Shown here piece by piece: positions 1 to 5,330 of a DNA stretch of 7,803 bases. Both the position numbers and the translations under genes were made by a program. The notes beneath the pieces were generated by a model. That model was not told where the DNA came from. It worked only from the letters and a program-made list of their open reading frames with translations, and searched no databases. This DNA is from a virus (Duplodnaviria > Heunggongvirae > Uroviricota > Caudoviricetes): IMG/VR virus record IMGVR_UViG_2711768004_000001, one strand, 5' to 3'. The stretch's first letter is position 1. Each line of letters begins with the position of its first letter.

Positions 1-34
1 CTCCAATGACTAGTCTAAAAACTAGTATTAAGAC

Positions 35-54
35 TATCACTTATTTAAGTGATA
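35..54. promoter_or_regulatory. 20-bp near-perfect palindrome TATCACTTA-TT-TAAGTGATA (operator-like site) upstream of the endolysin gene
   Basis: Read directly: 9-bp arms TATCACTTA / TAAGTGATA are exact reverse complements, separated by 2 bp, 55 bp upstream of the endolysin ATG. The outer TATCAC/GTGATA hexamers resemble lambdoid repressor/Cro operator half-sites. Two ACTAGT hexamers (9-14, 21-26) lie just upstream. Confidence 0.3.
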
Positions 55-108
55 CTGGTTGTCTGGAGATTCAGGGGGCCAGTCTAGTAAGGCTGCGAGA
101 GGTGAATA

Positions 109-488: not shown

Positions 489-767
489 NNNNNNNNNNNN
501 NNNNNNNNNNNNNNNNNNNNNNNNNNNNNNNNNNNNNNNNNNNNNNNNNNNNNNNNNNNNNNNNNNNNNNNNNNNNNNNNNNNNNNNNNNNNNNNNNNNN
601 NNNNNNNNNNNNNNNNNNNNNNNNNNNNNNNNNNNNNNNNNNNNNNNNNNNNNNNNNNNNNNNNNNNNNNNNNNNNNNNNNNNNNNNNNNNNNNNNNNNN
701 NNNNNNNNNNNNNNNNNNNNNNNNNNNNNNNNNNNNNNNNNNNNNNNNNNNNNNNNNNNNNNNNNNN
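489..767. other. Run of 279 N (assembly gap or masked sequence)
   Basis: Contiguous n characters. Hides the endolysin 3' end and the 5' ends of Rz and Rz1. Gap length is probably not the true length. Confidence 0.99.
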
Positions 768-950
768 AAATGCCCTGTGCCATCCTCAGCCGAAACCTCC
801 AGCGCCTCCGGCATGGGCAATGATGCCACCGTCGAACTCTCTCCAGTTGCTGGACGAAACGTTCTCGGTATCCGGGACGGAATCATCAGCGACCAGACAG
901 CATTGAGAATGCTTCAGGAGTACATCAGGATCCAATGCCTTGGGGGGTAG
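768..950 (+). CDS. Rz-like inner-membrane spanin (i-spanin), C-terminal portion; 5' end in N-run
   Basis: Frame ending TAG 948-950 translates ...ASGMGNDATVELSPVAGRNVLGIRDGIISDQTALRMLQEYIRIQCLGG. This is comparable to the lambda Rz C-terminus as recalled (ASGVDNAASPRLADTAERDYFTLRERLITMQKQLEGTQKYINEQCR), including the penultimate Cys. Position directly after the endolysin. Confidence 0.6.
   Translation, partial: KCPVPSSAETSSASGMGNDATVELSPVAGRNVLGIRDGIISDQTALRMLQEYIRIQCLGG
769..906 (+). CDS. Rz1-like outer-membrane lipoprotein spanin (o-spanin), C-terminal proline-rich part, embedded in the +1 frame of Rz
   Basis: +1 frame relative to Rz reads ...CHPQPKPPAPPAWAMMPPSNSL..., stop TGA 904-906. 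Resembles the lambda Rz1 motif KPPPPPAWIMQPP as recalled. Signal peptide and lipobox would be in the gap. Confidence 0.55.
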   Translation, partial: NALCHPQPKPPAPPAWAMMPPSNSLQLLDETFSVSGTESSATRQH

Positions 951-1003
951 CGGTAATTTTACTCATTATCCTTCAAATCAGATTCTGTTGTCAGAGGAAT
1001 GGG

Positions 1004-1030
1004 GGAAGCTGGATTCGCAAGAGCTTTTTA
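1004..1030 (+). terminator. Weak hairpin followed by T-run downstream of Rz (possible intrinsic terminator)
   Basis: AAGCT (1006-1010) pairs with AGCTT (1022-1026), 11-nt loop, followed by TTTTTA (1025-1030). Short stem, so weak. Confidence 0.2.
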
Positions 1031-1038
1031 TGGGCAGT

Positions 1039-1548
1039 TTAGCTAAAAAAAGGCAACACGAAGCTAAAACTACCAACATAAAGTGCTGACCAGCTAGCAG
1101 CTGAAATCAGACTCACTGTATACACTTTCACTGGATGAAGTTGCAACATTCCTGCCACCAAAGGAGCAATATAACGCAGCACGGCGATAAAGCGCGAAGT
1201 GAAAAGTATTGACACAGAGTTATTTTGCAACTGAAGGCGAACCCGTTCTATTGTATTGGAACGGCTTGATATTATACATGCAAGTTGAGGGATATGCCCA
1301 ATTATTATACCAAGATGGTAATTAACGATAGTACCGCACCATGCGCCACTCATGACCGTGATTCCAGCTTCCCATGGTGAAAGAGTCGTCTTGCTGACTG
1401 TAATTACAGTGGCCATCATAATTGATGCTGGTGGCAATATCGCCGAAATGAGTAAAGTGGATTTTGTGAACGCTATTATAAAAAGAAGCCCCCATAGGCG
1501 ATATGGATGAAGTACAAAATAGTTCATCAAAGCATTTATCCACTCCAT
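1039..1548 (-). CDS. DedA/YqaA-family small polytopic inner-membrane protein; reverse-oriented AT-rich moron
   Basis: 169-codon ORF on the minus strand. ATG at 1548-1546 is preceded by AGGA with 9-nt spacing (the track's first codon is TTG at 1551). Stop TAA at 1041-1039. Several hydrophobic segments. Motif FTSRFIAVLRYIAPLVAGM resembles the DedA/YqaA signature (F-x-x-R-F-x-P-x-x-R-x-x-x-P-x-x-AG). Visibly AT-rich versus the flanking phage genes and opposite in orientation to the late operon. Confidence 0.55.
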   Translation of the reverse strand: MEWINALMNYFVLHPYRLWGLLFIIAFTKSTLLISAILPPASIMMATVITVSKTTLSPWEAGITVMSGAWCGTIVNYHLGIIIGHIPQLACIISSRSNTIERVRLQLQNNSVSILFTSRFIAVLRYIAPLVAGMLQLHPVKVYTVSLISAASWSALYVGSFSFVLPFFS

Positions 1549-1601
1549 CAATGTCTTTCCTTCTGTGAATTTTTCTTTGCTATTTAACCGTGATACGACT
1601 T

Positions 1602-1631
1602 AATTTAGGCTTAAACACCTTACATTTACAA
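1602..1631 (-). promoter_or_regulatory. Candidate sigma70-like promoter for the reverse-strand moron
   Basis: On the minus strand: TTGTAA (plus 1631-1626), 18-nt spacer, TAAATT (plus 1607-1602), about 50 nt upstream of the moron ATG. Pattern match only. Confidence 0.15.
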
Positions 1632-1634
1632 GGT

Positions 1635-1673
1635 ACTCCTGTGGGGGGCCCTGCCACGGAGCGTCGCAGGAGT
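1635..1673. repeat. GC-rich inverted repeat (ACTCCTG ... CAGGAGT) enclosing a G/C-rich core; candidate terminase/cos-type site or regulatory hairpin
   Basis: 7-bp arms 1635-1641 and 1667-1673 are exact reverse complements around a 25-nt core (TGGGGGGCCCTGCCACGGAGCGTCG). The core holds an inner CCTGC/GCAGG inverted repeat and a GGGCCC palindrome. It is a GC-rich block in an otherwise AT-rich intergenic region, 70 bp upstream of the small-terminase start. No U-tract on either strand, so not a classic intrinsic terminator. Confidence 0.3.
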
Positions 1674-1745
1674 GAGTGATGAGGAAGAATTAAAGCAACC
1701 TATTGTGACAGGCAGCGATAACAGTAAATCACAGGAAGCATAATC

Positions 1746-2510
1746 ATGGCAAAACCGGACTGGGAGGCCATCGAATCGGCATACCGGGCCGGAGTCCTTA
1801 GCCTCCGTGATATAGGCGAGAAATACGGCGTTACAGAAGGGGCTATCAGGAAGAGGGCCAAAAAGCTTGGTTGGGCACGCAGTGGCGGTACGCAGGTTTG
1901 CAAAAATGGTACGCAAAAAAGGAAAGTGCGTACCAGCAGAAAGCCTGCCATTACTGGCCTTACACAAAAAAGTACGCAACTAAAAACAGAATCTACACCG
2001 GATACGAAACCGATACGCGGAATGCGTACCGATCCCCCGACTAACCCATTCCAACCCGGTAACCAGCAGGCATTAAAACACGGTGGTTATGCCCGTCGCC
2101 TTCTGCTCAAAGATGAGGTGATAGAGGACGCTAAAGCGTTGACGCTCGAGGACGAATTATTTCGCCTTCGTGCTAACAACCTTGTCGCTGCAGAGAATAT
2201 TGGTCGGTGGTTGGTGTCGCTGGAAGATGCTAATGGGGACCAGGAAAGGAAGATGCTGATTGAAAATATCAGCGCCGCCGAGAAAGCAATGATGCGCAAT
2301 ACAGTTCGTATTGAGTCCATCGTTGGCACGCTTGCGACGGTAGGAAAAATATTTGCTGATACAGCCTACCGCAAGGCCGCCACTGATAAGGTGTCTCTGG
2401 AGGCTGATCGTCTTCGCCGTGATGCAGGTATTGATGATGGCAATGGAGAGCGTGACCTCAATGACTTCTACTCTGACATCCAAACCGACGCTGAATCCGG
2501 CTTTACGTAG
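1746..2510 (+). CDS. Terminase small subunit (N-terminal HTH DNA-binding domain)
   Basis: RBS AGGAAG 9 nt upstream of ATG 1746. N-terminus MAKPDWEAIESAYRAGVLSLRDIGEKYGVTEGAIRKRAKKLGW is a typical terminase small-subunit HTH. A basic low-complexity linker follows. Sits immediately upstream of, and overlapping, the large terminase gene. Confidence 0.85.
   Translation: MAKPDWEAIESAYRAGVLSLRDIGEKYGVTEGAIRKRAKKLGWARSGGTQVCKNGTQKRKVRTSRKPAITGLTQKSTQLKTESTPDTKPIRGMRTDPPTNPFQPGNQQALKHGGYARRLLLKDEVIEDAKALTLEDELFRLRANNLVAAENIGRWLVSLEDANGDQERKMLIENISAAEKAMMRNTVRIESIVGTLATVGKIFADTAYRKAATDKVSLEADRLRRDAGIDDGNGERDLNDFYSDIQTDAESGFT
1887..2040. repeat. Cluster of direct and inverted GTACGCA repeats inside the small-terminase gene (candidate pac / terminase recognition site)
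   Basis: GGTACGCA at 1887-1894 and 1908-1915, GTACGCAA at 1972-1979, inverted TGCGTACC at 1927-1934 and 2033-2040. Copies 1908-1915 and 1927-1934 form an 8-bp inverted repeat with an 11-bp A-rich spacer. Confidence 0.3.
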
Positions 2511-3864
2511 TTTCTGGACTATGCGGGCACGTAACAAAGTGCTTTATGGTGGTCGGTCATCGTCAAAATCATGGGATGCCGCTGGCATTGCCATATTTCT
2601 GTCGAATAAATACACCCTGCGTTTTTGTTGTGCCCGTCAGATCCAGAATAAAATCGAAGAGTCGGTGTATACCCTGCTCAAAATTCAGATAGACAGGTTT
2701 GGTCTGCGGCACCGTTTCCGTATTCTGAACAACAAAATCATTAACCGGGTTACTGGCTCGGAATTTGTTTTTTATGGATTATGGCGCAACATCGAAGAAA
2801 TTAAGTCACTGGAGGGGATCGATGTGTTGTGGCTGGAAGAAGCCCACGCACTGACGGAATACCAGTGGAAAATTCTGGAGCCAACGATCCGTAAAGAGGG
2901 TTCGGAATGCTGGTTCATATTCAACCCCGGACTTGTTACTGATTTCGTCTGGCGCAACTTCGTTGTTGATCCGCCCGAAGGCACTCTCATCCGCAAAATT
3001 AACTATGACGAAAATCCGTTTCTGTCTGACACCATGCTTAAGGTTATCGACGCGGCGCGACGCCGTGATCCGGATGGTTTTAAACATGTGTATGAGGGCG
3101 TTCCGGAGTCTGATGATGATGCGGCAATCATCAAACTGTCTTGGATAGAAGCCGCAGTGGATGCGCACAAAACGTTAAATTTCGAACCCAGTGGAAGAAA
3201 GCGTATTGGCTTTGACGTGGCTGACAGTGGTACAGATAAGTGCGCTAACGTTTACCGTCACGGATCCGTTGTTTTCTGGGCCGACGAATGGAAGGCCAAA
3301 GAAGATGAATTACTGAAGAGCTGCCAGCGTACTTATCAGGCGGCGCTGGAGCGTGAAGCAGATATTGTTTACGACTCTATCGGTGTTGGTGCGTCTGCCG
3401 GTGCTAAATTCTCTGAAATTAACGCTGACCGGAAGAGCGAGAACGCATACGCGCGACGTGTGAATTACCAGAGGTTTAACGCCGGTGCTGGTGTGCATGA
3501 GCCAGATGACGAGTACAACGGCATCCCCAACAAAGACTTTTTCGCAAATCTTAAGGCTCAGGCATGGTGGCTGGTGGCTGACCGTTTCAGAAATACGTTT
3601 AACGCCATTAACAACGGAGAACAGTATCCTGTGGATGAGCTGATCAGCATAGATTCTCGTTGTCCGTTGCTTGAAAAGCTGAAACTGGAACTGACAACAC
3701 CTCATCGTGATTTCGACCGTAACGGACGTGTGATGGTCGAAAGTAAAAAAGACCTCGCAAAACGCGAGATACCGTCACCAAACGTTGCTGATGCATTCAT
3801 TATGGCCTTCGCGCCAATCGATACATCGCTGGATATCTGGGAACAGCTGGGGAGACAGGCCTGA
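2461..3864 (+). CDS. Terminase large subunit (Terminase_6/PBSX-like ATPase-nuclease)
   Basis: Long ORF with P-loop-like LYGGRSSSKSW near the N-terminus and later blocks (IKSLEGIDVLWLEEAHALT, WFIFNPG, FVVDPPEG, AIIKLSWIEAAVDAHK) that match recalled P22/Sf6-type large terminases. Start chosen at ATG 2461 (GGAG 2445-2448; N-terminus MTST...). Alternative in-frame ATGs at 2434, 2437 and 2443. The track ORF start at 2353 is probably read-through inside the small-terminase gene. Stop TGA 3862-3864. Confidence 0.88.
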   Translation: MTSTLTSKPTLNPALRSFWTMRARNKVLYGGRSSSKSWDAAGIAIFLSNKYTLRFCCARQIQNKIEESVYTLLKIQIDRFGLRHRFRILNNKIINRVTGSEFVFYGLWRNIEEIKSLEGIDVLWLEEAHALTEYQWKILEPTIRKEGSECWFIFNPGLVTDFVWRNFVVDPPEGTLIRKINYDENPFLSDTMLKVIDAARRRDPDGFKHVYEGVPESDDDAAIIKLSWIEAAVDAHKTLNFEPSGRKRIGFDVADSGTDKCANVYRHGSVVFWADEWKAKEDELLKSCQRTYQAALEREADIVYDSIGVGASAGAKFSEINADRKSENAYARRVNYQRFNAGAGVHEPDDEYNGIPNKDFFANLKAQAWWLVADRFRNTFNAINNGEQYPVDELISIDSRCPLLEKLKLELTTPHRDFDRNGRVMVESKKDLAKREIPSPNVADAFIMAFAPIDTSLDIWEQLGRQA

Positions 3865-5330
3865 TGGCACGAAACAAACAAGCCCTGCGGCGAACTGTGC
3901 AGGCCACAGCTGATGGTTATGAGAATTTTATTGCCCGCGTAGGGATGCAGACACCTAACCAGCACTCAGCATCCACCTACCGGGCTAATTTCACCAGTCG
4001 TAACCGCATGCTGGTGGAATGGTCCTATCGTTCATCCTAGATCATCGGCGAAGCAGTCGATGCTATCCCGGATGATATGACCCGCAAAGGCATTCGCATC
4101 ACTTCGGAAATTGATGCAAAAGATCGTGGCATTCTCGAATCACAACTGGATGAGTTGCAAATCTGGGATGCGCTGAATGACGTGCTGAAATGGTCGCGCC
4201 TCTACGGCGGCGCGGTGGGTTTCATCATGATTGAGGGGTAGGCACCAATGACCCCGCTGCGACCCGAAACCATCGGTAAGGGCAAGTTTAAGGGGATTCT
4301 CCCGCTCGACCGCTGGATGGTCGACCCGGCACTGACCCGCCGCATTAAAGATATGGGGCCGGACCTGGGTAAACCTGAGTTTTACGATGTGGTGACCACA
4401 GCAACGGGAATTCCTGCCTGGCGCATTCATCACAGTCGCCTGATTCGCTTTGATGGCGTCACGTTGCCATTTCAGCAGAAGATGACCGAGAACGAATGGG
4501 GAATGTCGGTTGTAGAGCGTATCTGGGATCGTCTTACCGCGTTCGACAGCGCTACTGTCGGCGCGGCGCAGCTGGTCTACAAGGCGCATTTGCGTACCTA
4601 CAGCGTGGAGAAGCTACGCGAGCTTATCGCACTTGGTGGTCCTGCGTATGAAGCGTTGCTGAAGAATATCGACCTGATTCGACAGTTCCAGAGTAATGAA
4701 GGCATGACGCTCATGGACTCGCGGGATAAGTTTGAAACCCATCAGTACAGCTTCAGTGGTCTGGATGACATCCTTTCGCAGTTTGTAGAACAGATTAGTG
4801 GCGCTGTTGGTATCCCACTGGTGCGGTTGTTCGGACAGTCCCCGAAAGGATTTTCTACCGGTGATGCAGACCTTGCCAACTATTACGATCGCATCAGTTC
4901 GTTGCAGGAGAGGCGTTTACGTCTTCCGGTGCGGCGGATACTGGACATCATGCATCGTTCGGAACTTGGCAAGCCGCTGCCGGACGATTTCACGTTTGAG
5001 TTTAACCCGCTCTGGCAAATGTCTGATGTCGATCGCTCAACGGTGGCGTTAAACACCACCAACGCAATCAGTACGGCGCTGGGTGATGGTCTGATGACAC
5101 TGAAAGCCGCTATGACTGATTTGCGAGAAAATTCTGACGTAACCGGCATCGGGGCATCCATTACCGACGAGGACATCGAGAATGCCGAAGATGAAGCGCC
5201 GCCCGGCATCGGCGAACCTGATGACGAACCGCAGGAGCCGTCAGGCGGAAATCCGGTATCGAACCAGCCTACGCAGGATAGCGAGGGCGGTCGGAGACAT
5301 CGTAAATGGTCGCTACGATGGTTCAAATGA
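3864..5330 (+). pseudogene. Portal protein gene interrupted by two in-frame TAG codons (intact ORF remnant 4248-5330)
   Basis: ATG 3864 overlaps the terminase stop (TGATG). A single frame is readable from 3864 to 5330, with TAG at 4038-4040 and TAG at 4239-4241 as the only stops. Translation continues sensibly through both (…EWSYRSS*IIGEAVDAIPDD… and …FIMIEG*APMTPLRPE…). Acidic C-terminal tail. Position between large terminase and the Mu-F-like gene fits a portal. Confidence 0.75.

What the first reader, a model, noticed from the sequence alone, without database searches (positions are those of the whole stretch)
1039..1631. Reverse-oriented AT-rich moron encoding a DedA/YqaA-like membrane protein in the bor-equivalent position
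A 169-aa polytopic membrane protein gene sits between the lysis cassette and the terminase genes. It is on the opposite strand to the whole late operon and in a visibly AT-rich island (951-1745), with its own RBS and a candidate promoter. This is the position and orientation of lambda bor and other lysogenic-conversion morons, which are expressed from the prophage. DedA/YqaA-family proteins act in membrane homeostasis, so a phage-borne copy could plausibly alter envelope properties such as superinfection exclusion, peptide or drug tolerance. That last step is inference.
Basis: partly seen in the sequence, partly recalled or inferred. Interest (0 to 1): 0.6.

Follow-up and report, generated by a model that had tools for sequence, protein, structure and literature searches.

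The report
Prophage-carried DedA membrane-protein cargo gene
A defective lambda-like prophage carries, where lambda carries bor, a backward-facing cargo gene for an unusual DedA-family inner-membrane protein whose Enterobacter relatives are switched on by the PhoPQ envelope-stress system. It is a testable but not radically new case of a phage moving an envelope-fitness gene into Shigella and E. coli.

Summary
The ORF at 1039-1548 (-) encodes 169 aa that pass Pfam's VTT/DedA threshold. It lies between Rz and the small terminase subunit, on the opposite strand, in a 42% GC island (951-1745) against 52% next door. Related prophages with the same flanks have only 57-208 bp there, so it is a moron in the lambda bor slot.

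It is not YqaA-like. It belongs to the COG0586 branch (DedA, YabI, YqjA) but forms a small subfamily. This keeps the two re-entrant-loop arginines (R119, R125) and has Lys for the near-universal Glu39 and Ala for Asp51.

Relatives are chromosomal in Enterobacter, Lelliottia, Kosakonia, Hafnia, Morganella and Arsenophonus. They are prophage-borne in Citrobacter youngae, Shigella and E. coli.

Enterobacter orthologues carry a perfect PhoP box, plus a second box 12 nt upstream of the -10. By synteny, the orthologue is induced 23-fold in a published mgrB-deletion mutant.

The phage cassette (1029-1619) kept only the weaker proximal box and the -10.

Best reading: a host-serving, probably PhoP-responsive lipid or lipid-carrier transporter. 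Function and regulation in Shigella are inferred. Verdict: a new member of a known kind, of moderate interest.

The parts
1039..1548 (-). CDS of the 169-aa DedA-superfamily protein (alternative TTG start at 1551; stop TAA at 1041-1039)
   Evidence: ORF list. Pfam VTT_dom 52.4 bits over residues 41-161. PGAP annotates 'DedA family protein'. dN/dS is 0.15-0.23 against homologues. AlphaFold model pLDDT 87.
1558..1562 (-). Shine-Dalgarno-like AAGGA, 9 nt before the ATG and 6 nt before the TTG
   Evidence: Read directly from the sequence. GGAG-like motifs occupy the same place in homologues.
1582..1587 (-). -10-like hexamer TTAAAT, conserved in the Citrobacter, Lelliottia and most Enterobacter homologues
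   Evidence: Upstream alignments. It was not found by the consensus promoter scan because no -35 hexamer is present.
1601..1617 (-). Proximal PhoP-box-like direct repeat TGTTTA-AGCCT-AAATTA (9 of 12), in direct orientation 13 nt upstream of the -10. It is positionally homologous to the box that lies 12 nt upstream of the -10 in all Citrobacter and Enterobacter copies.
   Evidence: PhoP promoter architecture I/II is described in PMC3335776. On its own, 9 of 12 is at chance level; the argument is positional conservation.
1599..1615 (.). Overlapping match to the PmrA box (XTTAAK-N5-XTTAAK) at 11 of 12, the only such site in the window. It is created by a 1-nt insertion relative to the Citrobacter copies.
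   Evidence: 0.36 sites expected per window. Consensus from PMC10570014 and PMC3973317. Not conserved in Citrobacter.
1029..1619 (-). Compact 591-bp mobile cassette (promoter boxes, gene and about 10 nt after the stop). This is the only part shared with the homologues in the C. youngae prophage and the C. meridianamericanus chromosome.
   Evidence: Three-way DNA alignment A4.
951..1745 (.). AT-rich insert (42.1% GC) relative to empty-site prophages. It includes 78 bp (951-1028) and 126 bp (1620-1745) of unassigned origin.
768..950 (+). Readable 3' end of Rz/Rz1 (spanin), the last gene of the lysis cassette and the left flank of the slot
   Evidence: PHROG 13 Rz-like spanin, E 4.6e-17. PGAP 'lysis protein' in L001.
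1746..2510 (+). Small terminase subunit, the right flank of the slot
   Evidence: PHROG 370, E 7.5e-95. Homologous TerS directly follows Rz in L002.

Best explanation
The gene is a lysogenic-conversion cargo gene (a moron). It was captured as a roughly 590-bp cassette from an enterobacterial chromosome and sits in the bor slot of a lambdoid prophage.

It encodes a minimal DedA protein of the COG0586 branch. The predicted layout is an N-terminal helix, a transmembrane helix, re-entrant hairpin 1, a transmembrane helix, two short helices, re-entrant hairpin 2 and a final transmembrane helix.

It most likely sits in the inner membrane and moves or scrambles a phosphate-headed lipid. Undecaprenyl phosphate, or a related carrier or anionic lipid, is the most likely substrate, bound by the conserved Arg pair R119/R125. 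Because Glu39 is replaced by Lys29 and Asp51 by Ala41, it probably does not use the proton-coupling mechanism proposed for YqjA, YghB and UptA.

It is transcribed from its own activator-dependent promoter, independently of and antisense to the phage late operon. Ancestrally that promoter is PhoP-activated (low Mg2+, cationic peptides, acid pH). The product would therefore serve the host's envelope remodelling rather than phage growth.

Shown here: family membership, moron status, the residue pattern, promoter conservation and purifying selection. Shown by published data, with the orthologue identified by synteny: PhoPQ-linked induction in Enterobacter. Inferred: the substrate, the lack of proton coupling, and PhoP control and benefit in Shigella and E. 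coli.
For: Family: Pfam VTT_dom is above threshold. The subfamily profile scores 42-64 bits on E. coli DedA, YabI, YqjA, YghB and YohD, against 11 bits or less on YqaA, YdjX and YdjZ. The AlphaFold model (pLDDT 87) shows the two helix-break-helix hairpins.

Residues: R119 and R125 align with YqjA R130 and R136. K29 aligns with E39 and A41 with D51. S42 aligns with the functionally important S52. The roles of these residues are described in bioRxiv 10.64898/2026.09.20.752871, PMC11474028 and PMC10127716. 'KST..LPPAS' is present in all 63 readable homologous loci. The next-best relatives carry Glu at this position.

Moron status: the island is in 6 of 5426 E. coli genomes. Empty sites of 57 bp and 208 bp exist between the same Rz and TerS genes. 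The same gene occupies the same slot in a C. youngae prophage that has a different lysis and terminase module. In one E. coli strain the gene and lysis cassette are joined to another terminase module.

Regulation: 22 of 64 homologous loci have a perfect PhoP box, while none of 1229 background windows does. A second box lies in direct orientation 12 nt upstream of a conserved TTAAAT. This matches PhoP promoter architectures I and II (PMC3335776). In E. hormaechei carrying an mgrB deletion, the MgtE, DedA and SDR genes N5F16_08425, 08430 and 08435 rise 19.6-, 23.1- and 3.1-fold (PMC10434160 supplement). The gene order is the same as in L039. The phage cassette retains the proximal box and the -10.

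Selection and retention: dN/dS is 0.15-0.23. The exact protein occurs in 4343 sample blocks, mostly S. flexneri, including prophages decayed in different ways.
Against: The window copy has lost the perfect distal PhoP box. Its proximal box matches only 9 of 12, which is chance level on its own. A 1-nt insertion shifts the second half-site and puts the box 13 nt, not 12, from the -10.

A published delta-phoPQ microarray of S. flexneri 301 grown in LB lists no DedA or membrane-associated gene among its 117 differentially expressed genes. I could not establish the gene's locus tag in that strain, and LB is not an inducing condition.

The identification of N5F16_08430 as the orthologue rests on synteny, not on its sequence.

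Both acidic residues that define the functional core of COG0586 flippases are absent. The protein may therefore not transport undecaprenyl phosphate at all.

No terminator was found downstream of the gene. No expression data exist for this copy.
Confidence: 0.55

Rival explanations
1. Neutral or silenced passenger. The cassette was picked up by illegitimate recombination. It is AT-rich and H-NS-silenced in Shigella and E. coli, and it persists only because the prophage remnant is young. It contributes nothing to host or phage.
For: The copies in E. coli and Shigella are at least 99% identical, so there has been little time for decay. The PhoP box is degenerate. The S. flexneri delta-phoPQ microarray gives no signal. 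The gene is rare in E. coli, at 6 of 5426 genomes.
Against: dN/dS is 0.15-0.23 along the lineage that includes two prophage-borne copies. In the same window the portal gene has two nonsense codons and the holin is cut by an IS, yet this ORF is intact. It shows no non-synonymous difference from the S. flexneri and E. coli reference copies L024/L025. It is also intact in ten differently rearranged remnants, although an exact-match look-up is biased toward intact copies.
Confidence: 0.2
2. Phage-serving membrane protein. It would act in superinfection exclusion or in modulating lysis timing, given its place beside the lysis cassette.
For: It is adjacent to the holin, endolysin and spanin genes. 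In L004 the gene travels with the lysis cassette rather than with the terminase. Small membrane proteins in this region of lambdoid phages often affect the envelope.
Against: It is oriented against the late operon, so it is not co-transcribed with the lysis genes. There is no PADLOC match. Its relatives are chromosomal genes of about 30 Enterobacter species, with no phage genes nearby. INPHARED holds no close homologue: 9 weak hits of 30% identity or less. In BFVD only giant-virus VTT proteins resemble it.
Confidence: 0.08
3. Same protein class but a different physiological role. It would support Mg2+ or divalent-cation homeostasis together with an MgtE-type channel, rather than lipid-carrier recycling.
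For: An MgtE-like gene is the immediate neighbour in 33 of 64 homologous loci, across Enterobacter, Lelliottia, Hafnia and Arsenophonus. The two genes are co-induced 19.6- and 23.1-fold. [quoted passage not shown]
Against: The phage cassette moved without the MgtE gene. The Kosakonia and Citrobacter copies also lack it. The conserved Arg pair points to an anionic ligand, not a cation.
Confidence: 0.1
4. In the Shigella/E. coli copy, control has shifted from PhoP to PmrA (BasR). The 1-nt insertion would have converted the proximal box into a PmrA box.
For: TTTAAG-CCTAA-ATTAAG at 1599-1615 matches XTTAAK-N5-XTTAAK at 11 of 12. It is the only such site in the window, where 0.36 are expected. The consensus is given in PMC10570014 and PMC3973317.
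Against: This is a post hoc match. The box-to-(-10) spacing of 11-12 nt differs from the roughly 8 nt implied for pbgP. The Citrobacter copies have TTGAG half-sites, which lack the AA contacted by PmrA.
Confidence: 0.07

Closest known systems
Lambda bor and other lambdoid late-region morons
   Same: It sits immediately downstream of Rz/Rz1, before the packaging genes, on the strand opposite to the late operon. It is present in some related prophages and absent from others, and its base composition differs from its surroundings.
   Different: There is no homology to the Bor lipoprotein. The product is a polytopic inner-membrane DedA protein. The promoter looks activator-dependent, and no terminator was found.
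COG0586 DedA proteins (E. coli YqjA, YghB, DedA, YabI, YohD; B. subtilis UptA; P. aeruginosa PA4029), described as undecaprenyl-phosphate flippases
   Same: These are the closest relatives by sequence, at 42-64 bits. The VTT core with two re-entrant hairpins is the same. The Arg pair (R130/R136 in YqjA) and S52 are conserved.
   Different: Glu39 is replaced by Lys, invariant within the subfamily, and Asp51 by Ala. The tip of hairpin 1 reads 'LPPAS' instead of 'LPGD'. It is about 50 residues shorter and lacks the C-terminal helix of YqjA. It falls far below every NCBIfam equivalog cut-off, for example 31 bits against 236.
   Same: Similar small size (142 aa against 169 aa) and the same superfamily.
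   Different: The subfamily profile scores only 9 bits on YqaA. YqaA lacks the Arg pair and keeps acidic residues near hairpin 1, which is the opposite pattern.
PhoP-activated genes with architecture I/II promoters (mgtA, slyB, ybjX, virK)
   Same: A direct-orientation (T/G)GTTTA-N5-(T/G)GTTTA box lies 12 nt upstream of the -10, and Enterobacter orthologues have a second upstream box. The orthologue is induced in an mgrB mutant alongside ybjX/virK-family, pagP and arn genes.
   Different: In the window copy only a 9-of-12 box at 13 nt remains. PhoP dependence in Shigella and E. coli is untested, and one LB microarray does not show it.

Membership tests
DedA / VTT superfamily (Pfam PF09335) | Significant match to the VTT-domain profile above the curated threshold | tested here: met
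   52.4 bits against a gathering score of 33.9, E 9.2e-14, residues 41-161. All 21 homologues found by the sequence search carry PF09335.
DedA / VTT superfamily (Pfam PF09335) | Core fold of three transmembrane helices plus two re-entrant helix-break-helix hairpins | tested here: met
   The AlphaFold model (pLDDT 87, pTM 0.82) has helix breaks at 36-40 (LPPAS) and 119-123. This is a prediction only. No solved DedA structure was found by sequence or by fold.
COG0586 DedA subfamily (undecaprenyl-phosphate flippases: YqjA, YghB, DedA, YabI, UptA) | Closest sequence similarity is to COG0586 members rather than to COG0398 or COG1238 | tested here: met
   The subfamily HMM scores DedA 64.3, YabI 62.7, YqjA 61.5, YghB 50.9 and YohD 42.1 bits, against YdjX 11.1, YqaA 9.1 and YdjZ -2.4.
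COG0586 DedA subfamily (undecaprenyl-phosphate flippases: YqjA, YghB, DedA, YabI, UptA) | [quoted passage not shown] | tested here: met
   R119 and R125 align with them, and both are invariant in alignment A1.
COG0586 DedA subfamily (undecaprenyl-phosphate flippases: YqjA, YghB, DedA, YabI, UptA) | Acidic residues at re-entrant helix 1 (YqjA E39 and D51), proposed to bind protons | tested here: not met
   K29 and A41 occupy these positions in all 63 readable loci. 35 of the 38 sequences outside the Lys-bearing group in alignment A6 carry Glu at the E39 position. D51 is already variable in the YabI-like relatives.
COG0586 DedA subfamily (undecaprenyl-phosphate flippases: YqjA, YghB, DedA, YabI, UptA) | Undecaprenyl-phosphate binding or flipping activity | not testable with these tools
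   This needs amphomycin/MX2401 sensitivity assays, native mass spectrometry of lipid binding, or complementation.
COG1238 (YqaA-like) | Acidic residues on re-entrant helix 1, no basic residues on re-entrant helix 2, and sequence similarity to YqaA | tested here: not met
   9.1 bits on YqaA. The residue pattern is the reverse of the YqaA pattern.
Moron (extra gene in a prophage, as defined for lambdoid phages) | Present between genes that are adjacent in related phages | tested here: met
   L002 has 57 bp between the Rz stop and the TerS ATG. Klebsiella phage ST16-OXA48phi5.2 has 208 bp there, with a 45-aa forward ORF. The island is in 6 of 5426 E. coli genomes.
Moron (extra gene in a prophage, as defined for lambdoid phages) | Base composition different from the neighbouring genes | tested here: met
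   42.1% GC against 52.2%.
Moron (extra gene in a prophage, as defined for lambdoid phages) | Its own promoter and terminator, and expression from the repressed prophage | tested here: inconclusive
   A conserved -10 plus activator boxes is present, but no -35 hexamer. There is no terminator-like structure after the stop codon. Expression cannot be tested here.
PhoP regulon | PhoP box in direct orientation about 12 nt upstream of the -10 hexamer | tested here: inconclusive
   Met in the orthologues: 12 nt, 9-10 of 12 matches, plus a 12-of-12 distal box in 22 loci. In the window copy the match is 9 of 12 at 13 nt, with a 1-nt insertion.
PhoP regulon | PhoP/PhoQ-dependent transcription | not testable with these tools
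   Orthologue, identified by synteny: 23.1-fold induction in E. hormaechei with an mgrB deletion. This copy: absent from the differentially expressed gene list of the S. flexneri 301 delta-phoPQ microarray in LB.

The most novel reading that the evidence does not exclude
The Lys-for-Glu39 DedA subfamily is a PhoPQ-induced transporter of undecaprenyl phosphate, or of an L-Ara4N-linked carrier lipid, that works without proton coupling. It would raise the capacity for lipid A and envelope modification. Lambdoid phages would have mobilised it, with its PhoP-responsive promoter, into Shigella and E. coli. That would make it a phage-transmissible determinant of tolerance to polymyxin and cationic peptides, retained in S. 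flexneri while the prophage decayed.
Probability: 0.15. Interest if true: 0.75.

Novelty: new member of a known kind. Interest (0 to 1): 0.45.

Why it matters
DedA proteins are now recognised as lipid-carrier and phospholipid transporters needed for polymyxin resistance in several pathogens. Here a distinct, uncharacterised DedA subfamily is linked on three sides: to the PhoPQ regulon in Enterobacter, to an MgtE-type gene, and to horizontal spread by prophages into Shigella and E. coli.

If the phage copy is expressed and active, it would be an example of a phage moving an envelope-remodelling transporter together with its host-stress-responsive promoter.

The Lys-for-Glu swap is also a natural test of the proposed proton-coupling role of Glu39 in this family. 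If the copy is silent, it is an ordinary moron.

Tried and rejected
- Consensus sigma-70 promoter and terminator scan of 900-1800: no promoter upstream of the gene. The single terminator-like site is inside the CDS and at chance level.
- RNA folding of 945-1045 and 1620-1700 on both strands: not more stable than shuffled sequence, so no intrinsic terminator or structured leader is supported.
- Rfam at a permissive threshold on 850-1850: only a chance snoRNA hit.
- PADLOC defence models: no hit.
- PDB by sequence profile and by fold: nothing. No DedA structure has been solved.
- BFVD viral structures: only weak giant-virus VTT proteins, with E above 0.3.
- First AlphaFold run with 20 close homologues: too poor to use, pLDDT 54.5. 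It was replaced by a 63-sequence alignment.
- The afdb50 fold library was not available.
- INPHARED protein search: no close phage homologue. The hits look like host DNA or distant DedA proteins.
- Plasmid search: the only close hits are two C. freundii 'plasmids' that carry chromosomal genes (icd, purB), so there is no evidence of plasmid spread.
- Direct repeats and inverted repeats flanking the insert: only short, chance-level matches and no target-site duplication.
- I tried to find the gene in the S. flexneri 301 delta-phoPQ data. I could not map the locus tag, and no matching description is present.
- I tried to read Huang et al. 2019 (dedA(Ecl)) to see whether it is this subfamily. The paper is not held.
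- The YqaA-like label was rejected.
Full report
**What is there**

The window is the late region of a lambdoid prophage. It holds the following, in order:
- an endolysin (Pfam Phage_lysozyme) and the 3' end of Rz/Rz1, up to 950;
- the gene in question on the minus strand (1039-1548);
- the small terminase subunit (1746-2510, PHROG 370);
- a PBSX-type large terminase subunit, a portal, a Mu-F-like protein, a DUF2213 protein and a cement protein, all on the plus strand.

Positions 489-767 are a run of 279 N. The ORF gives 169 aa from the conserved ATG. PGAP starts one codon earlier, at a TTG, and calls the product 'DedA family protein', WP_011069285.1.

The island 951-1745 is 42.1% GC. The packaging and head genes are 52.2% and the lysis side is 50.4%.

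**It is a moron in the bor slot**

Megablast against 5426 complete E. coli genomes finds the Rz and terminase flanks in many prophages. The island itself is in only six genomes, all at least 99% identical.

- In E. coli 123636 (L002), homologous Rz ends 57 bp before the ATG of a homologous TerS. Similarity to the window stops at about 950 and resumes at about 1739.
- Klebsiella phage ST16-OXA48phi5.2 has 208 bp there, with a small forward ORF.
- In lambda, bor lies 31 nt after Rz on the opposite strand. Here the gene lies 88 nt after Rz on the opposite strand.
- In E. coli RMDEC465, the gene and its lysis cassette are joined to a different terminase module.

**What the protein is**

Pfam VTT_dom (formerly SNARE_assoc/DedA) scores 52.4 bits against a gathering score of 33.9. 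No NCBIfam equivalog comes close to its cut-off: the best is 31 bits against 236.

A profile built from the homologues scores as follows on the eight E. coli K-12 paralogues:

| Paralogue | Branch | Bits |
|---|---|---|
| DedA | COG0586 | 64 |
| YabI | COG0586 | 63 |
| YqjA | COG0586 | 62 |
| YghB | COG0586 | 51 |
| YohD | COG0586 | 42 |
| YdjX | COG0398 | 11 |
| YqaA | COG1238 | 9 |
| YdjZ | COG0398 | -2 |

In the scheme of Todor et al. (PMC10127716), the protein therefore belongs to the COG0586 branch. It is not YqaA-like.

An AlphaFold model from a 63-sequence alignment (pLDDT 87, pTM 0.82) shows helix-break-helix hairpins around 32-52 and 111-134. This is the expected re-entrant architecture. 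No solved structure exists for comparison.

**A distinct subfamily with a charge reversal**

The protein aligns with YqjA as follows:

| This protein | YqjA |
|---|---|
| R119 | R130 |
| R125 | R136 |
| S42 | S52 |
| K29 | E39 |
| A41 | D51 |

E39, D51, R130 and R136 are required for YqjA and YghB function. The equivalent residues of UptA contribute to undecaprenyl-phosphate binding.

The motif 'KST..LPPAS' is present in all 63 readable homologous loci. An exhaustive HMMER search of 1.84 billion cluster representatives finds only 12 clusters at E below 1e-30, followed by a gap to about 98 bits or less. Every complete member of that top group has Lys. Of the 38 sequences outside it in my alignment, 35 carry Glu at that position. 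Asp51 is already variable in these YabI-like relatives.

The defining change is therefore Glu39 to Lys. I infer a pocket that is more positively charged, suited to a phosphate head group, and that lacks the proposed proton-binding site.

**Where the gene comes from**

The family is restricted to Enterobacterales.

| Host | Identity to window protein | Setting |
|---|---|---|
| About 30 Enterobacter species, and Lelliottia | about 50% | chromosomal |
| Kosakonia | 72% | chromosomal |
| Citrobacter amalonaticus | 57% | chromosomal |
| Hafnia, Morganella, Arsenophonus | 36-43% | chromosomal |
| C. meridianamericanus, C. freundii | 74% | 175 nt after a DinI-family gene, at two different chromosomal sites; looks like a prophage-end remnant |
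| C. youngae | 78% | prophage |

In C. youngae the gene lies in a prophage between the lysis cassette (GH19 endolysin, other holins) and lambda-type Nu1-like/GpA terminase genes. It is again antisense to the late genes.

The window, the C. youngae prophage and the C. meridianamericanus chromosome share only window 1029-1619. This span covers about 70 nt upstream of the ATG, the gene itself, and about 10 nt after the stop. The unit that moved is thus a cassette of roughly 590 bp.

GC content falls along the mobile lineage. It is about 60% in Enterobacter, matching those genomes, 47% in Citrobacter, and 42% here.

**Regulation**

The consensus scan finds no sigma-70 promoter upstream of the gene. 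The retained upstream stretch is nevertheless conserved across different contexts.

Across 64 loci the picture is as follows:
- A hexamer TTAAAT (TCTAAT in some) is preceded, 12 nt upstream, by a direct repeat matching the PhoP box (T/G)GTTTA-N5-(T/G)GTTTA at 9-10 of 12.
- 22 Enterobacter loci also have a perfect 12-of-12 box about 37 nt further upstream, and 5 more have 11 of 12.
- None of 1229 background 150-nt windows reaches 12 of 12.

This corresponds to PhoP promoter architectures I and II, in which a direct box lies 12 nt from the -10, with or without a second upstream box (PMC3335776).

In those genomes the gene is flanked by a divergent MgtE-like gene and an SDR gene. In a colistin-resistant E. 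hormaechei mutant with an mgrB deletion, the published supplement lists consecutive genes (PMC10434160):

| Locus | Product | Fold change |
|---|---|---|
| N5F16_08425 | MgtE-type magnesium transporter | +19.6 |
| N5F16_08430 | DedA family protein | +23.1 |
| N5F16_08435 | SDR family oxidoreductase | +3.1 |

In the same data the arn genes rise 35-56-fold, pagP 27-fold and a VirK/YbjX-family gene 45-fold. By synteny, the DedA gene is the orthologue. The chromosomal form therefore behaves as a PhoPQ-regulon gene.

The window copy keeps only the proximal element, TGTTTA-AGCCT-AAATTA (1617-1601). It matches 9 of 12 and lies 13 nt from TTAAAT (1587-1582). A 1-nt insertion relative to Citrobacter accounts for the shift.

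The same insertion creates an 11-of-12 match to the PmrA box at 1599-1615. I treat this as a minor rival reading.

A delta-phoPQ microarray of S. flexneri 301 grown in LB does not list a matching gene. I could not map the locus tag, and LB is not an inducing condition. PhoP control of this particular copy is plausible but not shown.

**State of the prophage and retention**

- Window 1-86 is the end of a multi-copy IS that interrupts the holin 22 nt before its end.
- The portal has two in-frame stop codons, without indels, relative to the intact E. coli copy.
- In related Shigella genomes the remnant is truncated by IS1 after the cement gene, and it is rearranged in several other ways.
- The DedA ORF is nevertheless intact. 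It shows no non-synonymous difference from the S. flexneri and E. coli reference copies L024/L025.
- The exact protein occurs in 4343 sample blocks and more than 1000 contigs. Most are S. flexneri, with some S. sonnei, S. dysenteriae and E. coli.
- dN/dS against the Citrobacter and Kosakonia homologues is 0.15-0.23.

These points favour a functional gene. Two cautions apply. The exact-match look-up is biased toward intact copies, and the Shigella and E. coli copies are too similar to one another to measure selection within that lineage.

**Mechanism I commit to, and the rivals**

Most likely (about 0.55), this is a host-serving moron. It encodes an inner-membrane transporter or scramblase of the COG0586 DedA type for a phosphate-headed lipid. 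Undecaprenyl phosphate or a related carrier is the leading candidate, given the Arg pair and the co-induction with the arn pathway. The protein probably works without proton coupling. It is probably expressed from its own promoter, which is ancestrally PhoP-activated.

Rivals:
- silent passenger (0.2);
- a role linked to Mg2+ or other divalent cations, with MgtE (0.1);
- a phage-serving function in exclusion or lysis (0.08). There is no PADLOC hit, the relatives are chromosomal, and the orientation is antisense;
- control shifted to PmrA (0.07).

**Novelty**

The identity as a DedA family protein is already in RefSeq. Morons in this slot are a known kind.

I did not find the following described in the searched literature:
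- the recognition of a Lys-variant COG0586 subfamily;
- its PhoP-box architecture and MgtE synteny;
- the fact that a promoter-plus-gene cassette of this subfamily sits in the bor slot of two unrelated lambdoid prophage types, and is widespread in S. flexneri.

Phage-borne DedA genes are otherwise rare. The only PHROG match is a weak hit to a family of unknown function. INPHARED holds no close homologue. In BFVD only giant-virus proteins resemble it.

I rate it a new member of a known kind, of moderate interest.

Noticed in passing
window 1-86: This is the end of a multi-copy insertion sequence, matching 20,770 places in E. coli genomes. It cuts the prophage holin gene 22 nt before its end. 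In related Shigella loci an IS3-family element sits between the holin and the endolysin.
   Followed up: partly
window 3864-5330: The portal gene (DUF1073 / Phage_portal_3) has two in-frame stop codons, at 4041-4043 and 4242-4244. It has no indels relative to the intact 488-aa copy in E. coli FDAARGOS_944. The prophage is therefore defective although the DedA gene is intact.
   Followed up: yes
window 489-767: A run of 279 N masks the 3' part of the endolysin and the 5' part of Rz. The real sequence in L001 is about 123 nt longer, so ORFs listed across this stretch are artefacts.
   Followed up: yes
window 1620-1745 (hairpin 1634-1674, + strand): These 126 bp lie between the DedA cassette and TerS. 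They belong neither to the cassette shared with Citrobacter nor to empty-site prophages. They contain a GC-rich hairpin with an 11-bp stem that is not more stable than shuffled sequence. Origin and role are unknown.
   Followed up: partly
L039 4613-6504 and 26 further Enterobacter/Lelliottia loci; L013 8001-10050 (Arsenophonus): An MgtE-like (CBS + MgtE) gene is the conserved neighbour of the DedA subfamily gene. It is divergent in Enterobacter and downstream in Arsenophonus. In Enterobacter the shared intergenic region holds the perfect PhoP box, so both genes may be driven from it.
   Followed up: partly
L099 6584-7510; L010 7584-8510: In C. freundii and C. meridianamericanus the homologue lies 175 nt downstream of a DinI-family gene. 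The two chromosomal sites differ: next to icd, and next to a cfa-type cluster. This suggests a two-gene prophage-end remnant. The C. freundii 'plasmid' record carries chromosomal housekeeping genes.
   Followed up: partly
L091 2904-5392; L089 671-3780: In Shigella genomes the prophage lies beside a pectinesterase gene (ybhC-like) followed by an integrase. At the other end, after an IS1, lie a lactonase gene (pgl-like) and a LysR-type gene. From my memory of the K-12 map this is the lambda attachment region, with an IS1-mediated deletion of the tail genes.
   Followed up: no
L001 4002-4312: The intact E. coli version of the prophage carries a cluster of four tRNA genes (Ile, Arg, Thr, Gly) between the antiterminator region and the holin. 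The O121 strain has Val in place of Gly.
   Followed up: no
L004 7781-8320: In E. coli RMDEC465, the alternative packaging module joined to the DedA-plus-lysis cassette includes a gene annotated as an anti-CBASS Acb1 family protein.
   Followed up: no
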